Positions 3,319-34,471 of a stretch of 64,000 nt of DNA are shown here, one piece after another. The first letter of the stretch is position 1. The number at the start of each line of letters is the position of its first letter. The position numbers and the translations under genes are program-made. Origin of the DNA: Octopus vulgaris (Eukaryota); the NCBI GenBank assembly GCA_951406725.2, contig OX597821.1, positions 15,314,001-15,378,000 of the forward strand, written 5' to 3'. The notes beneath the pieces were generated by a model, which did no database searches, had not been told where the DNA came from, and saw only the letters and a list, made by a program, of their open reading frames with translations.

Positions 3319-3857
3319 GAAGAAGATAGCCTCTATGCAGAATGTAAGCTACTGGGAAAGACTCAAGAGATTAAAATTATATTCCCTGGAGCGTAGGCGG
3401 GAAAGATATGCCATAATATACATCTGGAAGATCCTGGAGGGAAGTGTCCTGAACTTTGGCATCGAGAGTTACGCAAATGCCAGAACTGGGCGCCACTGCG
3501 TGGTGCCTAGGACTCCAAACCTGCCATCAAGATGTAGGACAAGATTCTGTGATAGCCTGGGCTTCCGAGGCCCACAGCTCTTCAATATCCTCCCGAAGAA
3601 CCTGAGAGACCTGCATGGGGTGGATACAGATGTCTTTAAAATGAAGCTGGATCTCTTCCTGTCAGGTGTCCCAGATGAACCAACTTCACGGCAGGAGGGG
3701 CAGATGAGGGCAGCTGCATCGAACTCTCTCATGCACCAAATAGCAGTTGCTAGAAAGCCTCCATGAAGTGAAACCAAGTAGCAACACCAAATGGCGGTGC
3801 CCCAGCATGGCCACAGCTCATAAGCTGAAACTAGAATCAATCAATCAATCAATCAAT
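3317..3857 (+). mobile_element. 5'-truncated CR1/L2-group LINE: ORF2 C-terminus, 3' UTR and (TCAA)n tail
   Basis: [21 protein letters not shown]...GPQLFNILP...FKMKLDLFL...NSLMHQ (stop at 3766) is the post-RT C-terminal region of CR1-group ORF2; 3' stem-loop cagct-cata-agctg; microsatellite tail. Confidence 0.88.
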
Positions 3858-7858: not shown

Positions 7859-9195
7859 AACAGATTGAACATTTCTGAATTTTTCCTCAGACTGTTCCTT
7901 TCTTCTGAAGATGGACTTTGCGCCTGAAATTCAAAGGCTTTATTAAACTTCCACGTAGTCAGAAGCTTTCTATTTTCTCTCTATTTGCTTTCATCGATAT
8001 TACAATGCTCCAAGCGAACTACAACGCTCTTATAGACTGAAAATTATTGAAGTCGGGGATCTAAGACTAATTCTTAGTACATTTCAGCGTGATGTCGAGA
8101 AGCTGATATTCTTGCACAATGTATATCCATCGCACTAAAAGTACGTAAACAACATGGTTTCTGGTGAGTTGTAAATGTGCACTTTCATATTGTAAAAACA
8201 TCAAAATAATGAGTTAATTACGTTTGATTCTAATTTGTGAAATACAGTTACTTTAAATTTTCGGTAGAATGAAGTCTACGTTAGTGGTGATGTGTCGGGG
8301 AGGGAGCGATAGGAATATGAGCTATTTTACGAGGAGGCAGCTATCCGAAATAATTTCGGAATAACATAGAATCTATGTATTCTTCCGTTTTTATGATGAC
8401 AGCGTATCATGCCGAGTGAATAACAAATACGTTTGCTTTTAGGAAATTTCGATGCCAAAATGGACAAATTAAACAATCGAAACACGAAACTAAATACTTT
8501 ATAAACGCTTCAAGGATAATATTTCAATTGTTCACAGATTTGGTCTTAGACTGAATCCCAAGGGAATAAATCTATTTATCATTACAAAACAGATCGACAT
8601 ATTTTTTAAAATATATATTTTGATAAATCTACTCTTCATAATACAATCACTTGGAGATGCTATCAAATATTTTTGCACACTAAATTCCGTGAGGAATATA
8701 ATAATACAAATTTGCTCTCACAGATATGGATAATGTTTTGACACTTGTGTGCCATGAGCGATAAGGTTTTTGTTTTTTGTTTATGAATATGAAACAAGAA
8801 TTATTAACAGTCCTTGGAACATTGGAGGAATTGAGAAATTACGAGGTTCAGTAAATCATTTTACTTGACAATTTTAGTTGCGGTAAGTTGTACTATGAGA
8901 TAGGGCTGCAGGGAGAAACTGTGTGCTGCATCGATTATTTAGAAGGAGGGAGTTGTTTGGAAAATTGAAGCAAACTTGCTATTTTTACATTATCTACCTG
9001 TCTCTCTGTGCCTGCATCTCTGCTCATCTGTATGTATGTATGTATGTATAAATATAAATATATACACATATATGTATGCATGAAGATTTCTTCTTCTTCT
9101 TATTATTATTTTTCCTTCTTTCTTCAAATTTTGCGTACACCTAGGGCAGAGAAGCTCATTGTATGCATTCCCAGATTACACATGCAAATTCACAG

Positions 9196-25002: not shown

Positions 25003-25450
25003 GGCGGCGAGCTGGCAGAAACGTTAGCCCTCCGGGCGAAATGCTTAGCGGTATTTCGTCTGCCATTACGTTCTGAGTTCCAATTCCGCCCAGGTCGACT
25101 TTACCTTTCATCATTTCGGGGTCGATAAATTAAGTACCAATTACGCACTGGAGCCTGTGTAATCGACTTAATCCTTTTGTCTGTCCTTGTTTGTCCCCTC
25201 TATGTTTAGCTCCTTGTGGGCAATAAAGAAATGAGAAACATTAGCCCACCGGGCGAAATGCTTAGCAGTATTTCGTCTGCCGTTACATTCTGAGTTCAAA
25301 TTCCGCCGAGGTCGAATTTGCCTTTCATTCTTTCGGGGTCGATAAATTGAGTACCAATCACGCACTGGGCTCGATGTAATCGATTTAATCAGTTTCTCTG
25401 TCCTTAGTTGTCCCCTCTATGTTTAACCTCTTGTGAGCAATAAAGAAATA
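25003..25450 (+). mobile_element. SINE family B tandem dimer inside one 17-bp TSD
   Basis: TSD agaattgaatgaggtca at 24984-25000 and 25451-25467; second unit starts near 25235. Confidence 0.93.
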
Positions 25451-26271
25451 AGAATTGAATGAGGTCATGCAATGACTATCAACGTGATTTTAGGTGAGTA
25501 CACCGAGAATTACAAAAAACAAAGAGAAAATTATCCTGAGTCAACACCTTATTCTAATTGATCTAATCTAATTTAATTTGAATTTCTATTTGTCTTCTGT
25601 TACTCTTCACTAAAATTGATCTTTGAGCTAATAAAAAAAATGTAATCTTAATAAATAAATTTATATTGGCTCTCACTATATTAAATATGTTAGCATCAAT
25701 TTCACTAAGTACTCACTATTCTAAATTTTATGTTGATTTACGTACATGAAAAGTGTCTAGAATTTCATTTAAGGTAAATTCATGCGTTTGATATTTTTGA
25801 AGGAATATGTAGCTCAAGCTTCCATATTGGTAGGCAATGAATGTTATGTTCTTAAGCAGAGTTGTTATTCATGACAATATATTCTTTAACGTTCCGTTTA
25901 TAGCTTTCAGATTAAACTGTTATTAGCACCCTTAACTTAATCTCTCTCATATATTTTAGAGAAAATAAATGCTCAGTTGCCTAAGTTGCCCTTAATTACA
26001 AGAAATATCATTAACGAAAATGTTTTCCATTTTTGTTTCTTTTTTTTTTCAATTATGAGTGTATTTTCCAGTGATTTGAAAAGCTGGATCTCTAAATCAC
26101 AAAGGATAGTTCCTAAAAAAGGAAAGAATAAAATAAAAATCCTCATGTCATAATGTTGAACTTTGGGATCTCTTCTTCACATTTCATACATATCCAATAA
26201 AATTTCTTTATATTTCATGATGGTTATCAACGGCATTTCTAAATAAATTTCTTGAAATATATAGAATCTTT

Positions 26272-26465
26272 ACGGAGATGTACTCGCATAGCAAGTATTT
26301 TGATCTGAGATCGTGTGCTGGAACGAAAACAATGGCAGCATGGAAGGTGTTTGTAAGACATTTAAGAAACACACAAAAGCCGTTCGATTCGCTTCAACAT
26401 TTAAGTTTAATTTGTCAAAATATTTTCGTCGCTAAAATCCGCGACCTGTTCACTGACAAAAATCC
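26272..26465 (-). mobile_element. ~190-bp TSD-flanked element with a hammerhead-like 5' end
   Basis: Direct repeat atagaatc at 26261-26268 and 26466-26473; more GC-rich than its flanks. Confidence 0.65.
26411..26460 (-). ncRNA. Hammerhead-like motif with G3:C8 core swap
   Basis: Minus strand: tttgtca-GTGAACA-g-gtcgc-ggatttta-gcgac-GAAA-atat-TT-tgacaaa. Confidence 0.5.
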
Positions 26466-27494
26466 ATAGAATCCTTGTATTACTGAATGAACTTATTTTT
26501 TATGGTATTTTAAAATGTATTTATAAATTTTCTTGTTCTGTATTTCGGTCACCTAAAAGCTATGTTCCAAACTTCTCTCCATTCTGGGTTCATTAATATA
26601 TTGTGCAAAAAGAAAGGCTTTCTAATTTATGTGCATCGAAATTTTGTTTTTCTTTATTCTATGCGTCCTTAACGTAGTCTATTCTCTCAACAAGATAGCT
26701 TTATCCGAGATACGCATTTTGACTAGTTTTCTAATGACTCAATAATAATGTATATTTATGGACACAGACAGAACTGACATTTAGCTCCTTGTCTAAACTT
26801 TCATTAATAGGTCAAGTACACCATTCAAGTTATTTTCACGGCTTTATAGAAATGTGGTGTTTCCCTACATAATTAAGGTTGTTCATAGTTACACTTCTCC
26901 CAAACTTTCTTGTATAATCGTTTTGTTCTTATCCCCCAGAGCAAAATAAAACATCTAATATCTATTAATATAAATTATCTTTATATGACCTATACTAAAA
27001 TAGAACAATTGGAATTGCATAAACTACAATCAAAACTGGAAATCTATTAAGAAATATTTCGTGGATTTATGGGCTGCTTTCAAAATATATTTCAACCATA
27101 AGAATATCCTAAGATTAGCAAATATACAATGAAACAAATATGAATAAAAGGACGGCATTGTTATTTTTAATGTAGTTCTTAATGTACATCAGTCACAACA
27201 ACATAAACGAGAAACAGCAGTAATGAGAGACAAAATATTTTACAGTTTTAAAGTTATTACCAAAAGCAATAATATTTCCTCAATAATATTTCCCCCCTTG
27301 CTTTATATAGAATTCAAATAATTTATAGATTCTATAGTGAAATGACATCACAGATCTTATATATCAAATTGAAGTATTTTAATGAAAGATTCGGGAATGG
27401 ACAATATGTAAGGAAAATTGAATATAATTAGGACTAACGAAAGTGATGTATTTTCTGTAGAACTATTTCTGAAATGACCAAGCCAAATTCTATC

Positions 27495-30012: not shown

Positions 30013-30073
<61 letters not shown>

Positions 30074-30382
30074 ATATTTCGGGACGGTAATTTTTTTCTT
30101 GCCAAATAAATACACGCACAATATATTCCTTCTTCAATCGTTTATTATTGTTCTTCTTTCATTTCATGTACATTGTCTGGAAAACTTTTGTTACATACTT
30201 GTGACCGCTTCAGTGACCCTTTCTATTCAAATATATGCTCCTGCTCCACCAACCACATCTGCTTTAACACACGAGTTCACATCAGAAATCTTGCAAAACA
30301 AATTCATAAGCATAGTTATATATGCCTACATGCATATGTGCGTTTTTAGTTTTGTACATATTAAAGAATGTATGTATATATA

Positions 30383-34410: not shown

Positions 34411-34471
34411 TTCGCTCTCGGATATGATCTGCAAGATTGTTTATGTGAATTCGTGTGTTGAAGCATATTCA

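What the first reader, a model, noticed from the sequence alone, without database searches (positions are those of the whole stretch)
26272..26465. Short TSD-flanked element headed by a hammerhead with a swapped G3:C8 core pair
Seen: the minus strand folds as a 7-bp stem I (tttgtca/tgacaaa), GUGAACA in place of CUGANGA, one extra G, a 5-bp stem II (gtcgc/gcgac), GAAA, a palindromic AATATT stem III and a UUU triplet. It sits at the 5' edge of a ~190-bp insert bounded by atagaatc repeats. Known: positions 3 and 8 form a Watson-Crick tertiary pair, and swapping both can retain activity. Inference: two substitutions at exactly these positions suggest compensation rather than decay, so this may be a ribozyme-headed retroposon that canonical motif searches miss.
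Basis: partly seen in the sequence, partly recalled or inferred. Interest (0 to 1): 0.72.

Follow-up and report, generated by a model that had tools for sequence, protein, structure and literature searches.

The report
Swapped-core hammerhead in Penelope retrotransposon stub
This 197-base insert is one of thousands of short front-end stubs of a Penelope-type jumping gene, likely in an octopus, and it carries a hammerhead-shaped RNA, predicted but not shown to cut itself, whose central paired letters are swapped (G-C instead of C-G) relative to sister elements, a form that motif searches for the usual core would miss.

Summary
The motif, the 8-bp target duplication and the insert (26269-26465, 197 bp) are real. 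The insert is not an independent ribozyme-headed retroposon. It is the 5' UTR plus the first 30 codons of a Penelope-like element (PLE) whose full-length form (RT, Cys linker, GIY-YIG) is in the same genome. Over 7,000 copies match, with PLE hallmarks: two alternative 3' ends, head-to-head pairs, AT-rich targets. G3:C8 is the family norm (79 of 83 copies chosen without regard to the core). Older relatives and a sister PLE (57% protein identity) have C3:G8; a distant PLE has U3:A8. This supports compensation. Against a strict need for cutting: about 140 mismatched G3:G8 copies exist (about 8 times the C3:C8 count), most copies keep the sequence upstream of the predicted cut, and I found no clear excess of copies starting at the cut. 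Cleavage is untested. I found G3:C8 in print only as a lab double mutant, but two key papers were unavailable. This scan has noted the same swap before, in this genome and others. Verdict: a new natural core variant of the known PLE hammerhead.

The parts
26261..26268 (+). Target-site duplication, left copy (8 bp)
   Evidence: identical to 26466-26473
26466..26473 (+). Target-site duplication, right copy (8 bp)
26269..26465 (-). 197-bp stub of a Penelope-like element: 5' UTR (about 11 nt short of the usual start) plus ORF start and tail
   Evidence: 95.8% identical over 191 nt to the 3' pseudo-LTR and 95.0% over 180 nt to the 5' end of full-length copy L262; family ends
26411..26460 (-). Type I minimal hammerhead motif (stem I 26460-26454 with 26417-26411; stem II 26445-26441 with 26432-26428)
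   Evidence: pair counts
26447..26453 (-). Core strand GUGAACA with G3 (26453) and C8 (26448)
   Evidence: family frequencies
26446..26446 (-). [quoted passage not shown]
   Evidence: also in C3:G8 relatives; described as conserved in PLE minimal hammerheads (PMC4209133)
26419..26424 (-). Six-base palindrome that could form stem III between two hammerheads
   Evidence: closing it within one molecule costs 5.4 kcal/mol, the two-molecule form costs nothing extra
26417..26418 (-). Predicted cleavage site (after U17)
   Evidence: inferred from hammerhead numbering; not shown
26272..26361 (-). First 30 codons of the PLE ORF (MSYKHLP...MRVHLR), open to the end of the insert
   Evidence: the same frame continues into the long ORF in L262 and L261
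26270..26326 (-). Optional tail of about 60 nt between the family's two 3' ends
   Evidence: 3' ends of 111 arms: 40 at columns 123-131, 54 at columns 181-186

Best explanation
The insert is a short reverse-transcribed copy of the front end of a Penelope-like retrotransposon, and the hammerhead motif in its 5' UTR is likely a slow, partner- or protein-assisted self-cleaving RNA whose C3:G8 pair was replaced by G3:C8 in this lineage. Shown: the stub is the element's 5' UTR plus 30 codons; the full element (ORF of roughly 1,070 codons with RT, Cys linker and GIY-YIG, then about 1 kb of 3' UTR and a second copy of the stub) is in the genome; G3:C8 is the family norm; relatives have C3:G8. Inferred: the RNA starts at a capped A about 59 nt before the cut; the element's own protein nicks AT-rich DNA and primes reverse transcription at two sites inside the ORF start, as shown in vitro for the anole element PAc; priming on the RNA's front end gives stubs, priming on its 3' repeat gives long copies, and priming on both DNA strands gives head-to-head pairs. 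A lone stub would not cut (no stable stem III); the two copies in one full-length transcript could pair through the palindrome as a double hammerhead. Cutting would remove the cap 56 nt before the AUG or trim tandem transcripts, and is probably not required for insertion. The swap probably went C3:G8 to G3:G8 to G3:C8.
For: Full-length element and continuous frame; GIY-YIG match E = 1.6e-5; 168 homologous proteins at E <= 1e-20. At least 150 endonuclease-bearing copies, most over 90% identical. Two 3' ends and clustered 5' starts. Extra G before the usual start in 13 of 21 informative copies (hand-sorted; about 20% expected), as expected from a cap. G3:C8 in 79 of 83 core-unbiased arms. In contigs of three other coded organism labels no variant of 2% or more was listed at core positions 26441-26460 while many were listed elsewhere (7 rows not shown). 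Subfamily differences sit in loop II and outside the motif, not in the core. C3:G8 in 31 older relatives (control 3); 12 of these 31 plus the sister match a profile of the sequence downstream of the motif, against 0 of 62 controls (only 5 at E < 0.01). Sister PLE has C3:G8 and a homologous ORF start, 34% over 182 aa. A distant PLE has U3:A8 (16 of 30 loci). Lab data: C3G/G8C partly restores cutting in a PLE hammerhead, which needs the element's protein (PMC11167929).
Against: No cleavage data. About 140 G3:G8 copies against about 18 C3:C8 (scaled from hand counts of the first 100 rows of 359 and 182 matches), spread over several subfamily backgrounds: sources with a broken pair may have been mobilised. 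103 of 111 arms start upstream of the predicted cut. Copies starting at the cut are about 1% of arms against about 0.5% per position elsewhere (rough denominator). The young sister family has C at the normally invariant position 9, so core changes are tolerated in this lineage. The swap is a single evolutionary event here, and the C3:G8 relatives were found with a pattern that fixed C3 and G8. In PAc, ribozyme mutants did not affect insertion in vitro.
Confidence: 0.68

Rival explanations
1. The motif is a catalytically dead or nearly dead descendant of the PLE hammerhead. The fold is kept for another job (binding the element's protein, internal promoter, translation control), and G3:C8 spread by drift or hitch-hiking with a successful source element.
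For: Excess of G3:G8 copies across subfamilies; sister family with C9; no clear genomic footprint of cutting; PLE minimal hammerheads cleave weakly in vitro (PMC4209133) and PAc mutants still insert (PMC11167929).
Against: Of the conserved core positions only 3 and 8 differ from the C3:G8 relatives, and the second change is the one that restores the pair (about 1 in 36 by chance, my estimate from 12 other core positions x 3 bases). The core stayed intact while flanking DNA diverged until only a profile search detects it. The youngest loop variant had no G8 copy among 39 examined.
Confidence: 0.26
2. An independent short retroposon or retrozyme whose RNA ends are made by the ribozyme, possibly through a circular RNA.
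For: Short, high-copy, TSD-flanked, with a type I hammerhead near the 5' edge. Animal retrozymes are proposed to derive from PLE pseudo-LTRs (bioRxiv 10.64898/2026.07.22.740005).
Against: The sequence is collinear with both ends of an autonomous PLE and carries its first 30 codons in frame. No head-to-tail stub arrays or copies permuted at the cut were seen in the 60 loci read; neighbouring arms are head-to-head. Copies start upstream of the cut.
Confidence: 0.05
3. A chance look-alike or a single decayed copy.
For: Rfam gives no match; hammerhead cores are short.
Against: 7,079 matches against 1 control; same position and fold as canonical hammerheads in related elements.
Confidence: 0.01

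Closest known systems
Minimal type I hammerheads in pseudo-LTRs of metazoan Penelope-like elements (Cervera and de la Pena 2014, PMC4209133)
   Same: Type I topology, extra nucleotide between 9 and 10.1, G10.1-C11.1 pair, small palindromic stem III, position in the pseudo-LTR, thousands of solo copies, opposite-strand pairs close together.
   Different: Core pair G3:C8. The parts read report C3:G8 and a U3:A8 variant (Schistosoma), not G3:C8. No octopus entry in the supplement file searched; one supplement file could not be searched.
PAc, the Poseidon element of Anolis carolinensis (Frangieh et al. 2024, PMC11167929)
   Same: Hammerhead next to the ORF start; two 3' ends inside the ORF start defining an optional tail; AT-rich targets; inserted copies come from uncut RNA.
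   Different: PAc has C3:G8 and G3:C8 there is an engineered double mutant. Its ORF starts inside the hammerhead, here 56 nt after the cut. Tail about 60 nt here against the 30-40 bp quoted for PLEs. This ORF has a Cys-rich RT-EN linker, which points to the Neptune or Nematis clades (PMC8557442).
Natural U3:A8 hammerheads (Perreault et al. 2011, PMC3088659)
   Same: Natural covariation at the 3:8 tertiary pair.
   Different: U3:A8 keeps pyrimidine 3 and purine 8 (two transitions); G3:C8 inverts the pair (two transversions).
Animal non-LTR retrozymes (PMC7229834; bioRxiv 10.64898/2026.07.22.740005)
   Same: Short non-coding repeats with a type I hammerhead, related to PLEs.
   Different: Retrozymes are head-to-tail tandem units; these stubs are solo or head-to-head, hold the ORF start and are collinear with an autonomous element.

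Membership tests
Penelope-like element, endonuclease-bearing | One ORF with PLE-type RT and C-terminal GIY-YIG endonuclease | tested here: met
   998-aa open stretch in L252 with RT motifs seen by eye and PF01541 over its cut-off; the stub's frame runs into it in L262 and L261. Pfam RVT_1 was not hit.
Penelope-like element, endonuclease-bearing | Pseudo-LTR: same sequence at both ends of the ORF | tested here: met
   L262 carries the stub at 3582-3761 and 8536-8726; the 5' copy is truncated inside the core
Penelope-like element, endonuclease-bearing | Optional 3' tail and inverted 5'-truncated neighbour copies | tested here: met
   bimodal 3' ends 40 and 54 of 111; head-to-head arms
Neptune or Nematis clade of PLEs | Cys-rich linker between RT and endonuclease | tested here: met
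   Cys motif before the GIY-YIG domain in P0002; feature named in PMC8557442
Neptune or Nematis clade of PLEs | Placement in an RT tree with named clade references | not tested
   no named reference proteins were available from the tools (one search hits are nearly all unnamed)
Hammerhead ribozyme, type I minimal | Three-way junction with stems I and II and an A15.1-U16.1 pair | tested here: met
   stem II 93% paired in 13 selected sequences
Hammerhead ribozyme, type I minimal | Literal core CUGANGA | tested here: not met
   GUGAACA; no Rfam match
Hammerhead ribozyme, type I minimal | Watson-Crick pair between positions 3 and 8; other core bases U4 G5 A6 A9 G12 A13 A14 and NUH intact | tested here: met
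   family counts
Hammerhead ribozyme, type I minimal | Site-specific self-cleavage | not testable with these tools
   needs an assay; the genomic proxy was inconclusive
Non-LTR retrozyme | Head-to-tail tandem units each with a hammerhead | tested here: not met
   none among the 60 loci read; no genome-wide search for arrays was run
Non-LTR retrozyme | Circular RNA joined at the cut | not testable with these tools
   only assembled contigs were available

The most novel reading that the evidence does not exclude
An active natural hammerhead with an inverted G3:C8 core pair, fixed in a high-copy retrotransposon, with the route preserved in the genome: C3:G8 ancestors, a G3:G8 intermediate that still moved, and a G3:C8 sweep. 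With C3:G8 and U3:A8 in other PLE families of the same genome, this would be natural evidence that PLE hammerheads are selected for catalysis though cutting is not needed for each insertion, and that core-literal searches miss whole families.
Probability: 0.42. Interest if true: 0.66.

Novelty: new variant of a known kind. Interest (0 to 1): 0.5.

Why it matters
What PLE hammerheads do is stated as unclear in the literature read (PMC8557442; PMC11167929). A natural series in one genome (C3:G8, G3:G8, G3:C8, U3:A8) on otherwise near-identical scaffolds makes the question directly testable: if only the paired forms cut, the pair is kept for catalysis. It also shows that descriptors demanding CUGANGA miss a family of more than 7,000 copies, so hammerhead counts in animal genomes are underestimates. 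The element class and its mechanism are known; the new part is the core variant and its population history.

Tried and rejected
Rfam scan of the window: no match. First candidate partner, the 781-aa GIY-YIG family: rejected, no DNA homology to the stub apart from unrelated nested stub insertions, 20% protein identity, and a different U3:A8 motif. Splice-acceptor reading of the common 5' start: the long form has a branch-point-like and pyrimidine-rich stretch ending in AG, but bases upstream of the extra G are not shared between copies, so I prefer a capped start; not settled. Genomic footprint of cutting: of the first 100 of 126 matches, by hand 46 were point changes at position 17, 41 began at the cut, 12 were fold-back joints on stem I, 1 other; at most about twofold over background, inconclusive. 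Tree test of G8 clustering: 17 label changes against 27 shuffled, but rows came from two alignment methods and the tree is star-like, so I do not rely on it. One search's count (89 G3:C8, 5 G3:G8 of 94) was not de-duplicated and is replaced. The shuffled-window control (0 hits in 40) is not used: its scanner stops at the first NUH and scores the real motif's stem I as 1. Expression: no RNA holder listed on record; runs guessed to be RNA are contigs and show nothing about ends or level. Pair-count shuffles on a 13-row, motif-selected alignment were mostly not beyond the control (covariation score 5 of 500, other measures 35-228 of 500). No tRNA gene in the window. Literature: nine searches found G3:C8 only as an engineered variant. 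Lunse et al. 2017 and Martick and Scott 2006 are not held, and the Terminon paper did not come up, so a prior natural report cannot be excluded.

Full report
1. Observation. The minus strand reads as described: stem I 26460-26454 with 26417-26411, core GUGAACA at 26453-26447, an extra G, stem II 26445-26441 with 26432-26428, GAA, the palindrome AAUAUU and U17, with the predicted cut between 26418 and 26417. The 61-nt stretch folds into stems I and II (z = -3.24, 2 of 200 shuffles), and these stems stay in the fold of the whole insert. An 8-bp duplication at 26261-26268 and 26466-26473 bounds a 197-bp insert. Rfam has no match in the window.

2. The family. The genome is 2.8 Gb. A BLAST search had 1,360 candidates, 40 scored, at 95-97% identity. 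The pattern TGTCASTGANSAGGTCGC has 7,079 exact matches against 1 control; of the first 100 listed, 98 are G3:C8, 1 G3:G8, 1 C3:C8. To avoid selecting on the core I anchored a pattern in the body of the element (3,729 matches) and fetched 90 loci around the first 100 rows. They hold 111 arms, a few of them local duplicates. Of 83 arms that cover both positions, 79 are G3:C8 and one each is G3:U8, G3:G8, A3:C8 and A3:G8. The 3' ends are bimodal: 40 arms end at columns 123-131 and 54 at 181-186 (column 3 = G3), an optional tail of about 60 nt. 5' starts cluster at columns -24 to -17 (40 arms); 16 alignments reach the upstream limit of the reference; only 8 arms start downstream of the predicted cut at column 39. 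Many arms sit head to head and in (TA)n or other AT-rich targets. The family is abundant in contigs of three other coded organism labels, with no listed variant of 2% or more at 26441-26460 (40 rows shown, 7 not).

3. The parent. 422 copies match a longer 5' form exactly. In several, the upstream sequence runs through about 1 kb of microsatellite-rich DNA into an ORF with RT motifs, a Cys-rich linker and a GIY-YIG domain. Of 20 regions fetched around RT matches, L262 has the stub at both ends and L261 has the tail end in front of the ORF. In both, the frame that starts inside the stub continues without a break into the ORF; the window copy has the same 30 codons. L252 gives 998 uninterrupted residues with a GIY-YIG match over the cut-off. 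L262's own ORF is interrupted by stops. At least 150 copies carry the endonuclease region. The best named homolog is labelled Octopus vulgaris (57% identity) and its peptide is found unchanged in this genome, so the host is likely an octopus (inference). The window insert is 95-96% identical to both ends of L262. It is therefore a stub of an autonomous PLE, not a separate element.

4. Is the swap compensatory? For: the canonical pattern in the same context has 31 matches against 3 controls. Most are older, decayed elements with the same extra G and stem II; 12 of the 31 match a profile built only from sequence downstream of the motif, against 0 of 62 control and shuffled stretches (weak scores, 5 at E < 0.01). 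The family of the 57% homolog is young (150 matches at 98-100%); in the 2 of 30 loci printed it has C3:G8, C at position 9, and a homologous ORF start. A distant PLE family (20% identity) has U3:A8 with a palindromic stem III (16 of 30 loci). So three Watson-Crick forms occur in three PLE families of one genome. Against a strict requirement: in the family context, 182 matches lack G3 (first 100 by hand: 63 A3, 27 U3, 10 C3; none C3:G8 or U3:A8, 4 A3:U8) and 359 have G3 without C8 (first 100: 41 U8, 39 G8, 20 A8). Transitions are about balanced (about 115 against 147), but G3:G8 (about 140) outnumbers C3:C8 (about 18) roughly eightfold. The 39 G3:G8 copies fetched are mostly of older type (30 old, 6 young, 3 unclassed, against 11, 11, 2 for 24 G3:C8 copies), lie on several subfamily backgrounds, and none has the youngest loop II. 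G8 is the ancestral base, so the simplest reading is that C3 changed first, mismatched sources were still copied, and C8 then took over. Recurrent back-mutation or recombination between sources is not excluded. This is one evolutionary event, so it is suggestive covariation, not a statistical proof.

5. How it likely works. In PAc, reverse transcription starts at two sites inside the ORF start, these define the tail, both DNA strands are cut and extended, AT-rich DNA is preferred, uncut RNA is the template, the hammerhead cuts only with the protein, and C3G/G8C partly restores cutting (PMC11167929, parts 1-2 of 4 read). The anatomy here fits that model (inference). An extra G precedes the usual start in 13 of 21 informative copies after I set aside 28 with the genomic C and 8 explained by an inverted arm or the target, which suggests a capped RNA starting there. 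The cut would then fall at +59 and the AUG at +116. Closing stem III in one molecule costs 5.4 kcal/mol, whereas the double-hammerhead form scores -27.2 against -26.6 kcal/mol for two open monomers, so a partner copy or the protein is probably needed; a full-length transcript carries two copies. Cutting would uncap the message or trim tandem transcripts. A report that 5' UTR hammerheads of fungal viruses drive cap-independent translation (PMC13725137, passages) offers a further possibility, untested here. My genomic test for cutting was inconclusive.

6. Comparison with what is known. PLE minimal hammerheads, the extra nucleotide, the palindromic stem III and a U3:A8 variant are in PMC4209133 (parts 1-2 of 4 and passages of one supplement file). 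Natural U3:A8 is in PMC3088659 (passages). G3:C8 appears as an engineered variant in PMC11167929, PMC8495972 (passage) and PMC3884650 (passages). PLE tails, inverted copies and the Cys linker are in PMC8557442 (passages). Retrozymes: PMC7229834 (passages) and bioRxiv 10.64898/2026.07.22.740005 (part 1 of 5; supplements not seen). PMC6765202 and PMC10085705 (passages) added nothing on G3:C8. Nine searches found no natural G3:C8 and no octopus PLE hammerhead. Lunse et al. 2017, the most likely place for such a variant, could not be read. Hammerhead numbering is from my own knowledge.

7. Earlier scan notes. A look-up by sequence found nothing. A look-up by words after my analysis found 60 notes in at least 3 genomes, several describing this same family and reaching the same reading. 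They are not independent evidence.

8. Verdict. Observation confirmed; interpretation partly supported. A known kind of element with a natural core variant that I did not find in print, activity unshown. New variant of a known kind; interest 0.5.

Noticed in passing
window 30066-30217, minus strand: A decayed stub of the related C3:G8 lineage, with core CUGAAGC (C at position 9) and a damaged stem II, ending in (TA)n; 84% identical to L115 over 152 nt. Both core forms lie within 4 kb of each other in this window.
   Followed up: partly
window 34422-34468, minus strand: A 47-nt match (85%) to the ORF-start region of the sister PLE family, with no hammerhead upstream.
   Followed up: partly
L326 2662-2720 and L327 (G000:C26, 27.48 Mb): A very young PLE family (98-100% identical copies, open frames up to 1,312 codons, tandem units of about 4.6 kb) whose hammerhead has C in place of the normally invariant A9.
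   Followed up: partly
L091-L103 (for example L093 237 and 5787): A young PLE family with a 781-codon RT/GIY-YIG frame, a long A-rich upstream region, a 3' UTR with repeated CCAAT- and TGACGTC-like motifs and a U3:A8 hammerhead near its 3' end.
   Followed up: partly
G000:C28, loci L228, L229, L258, L259: Long RT-bearing copies of this family that carry the mismatched G3:G8 core; several similar copies cluster on this contig.
   Followed up: no
window 26438-26540: Contigs from two other coded organism labels (runs X4, X8) cross from the stub into this flank, so this insertion appears to be shared with them.
   Followed up: no
window 25017-25450: Two tandem copies of a 217-nt unit at 87% identity.
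   Followed up: no
window about 28483 onward: A sequence after a (TA)n run that resembles the head of a tRNA-derived SINE (resemblance recalled, not tested; ARAGORN finds no tRNA).
   Followed up: no
window 23464 minus strand and 29799 plus strand: Two canonical CUGANGA...GAAA cores with a possible stem II but little or no stem I as scored by my scanner; probably chance or remnants.
   Followed up: no
L250 2127-4560 and L264 minus strand: Another PLE-type RT region lies upstream of the family copy in L250, and L264 has a C2H2 zinc-finger array frame next to the element.
   Followed up: no
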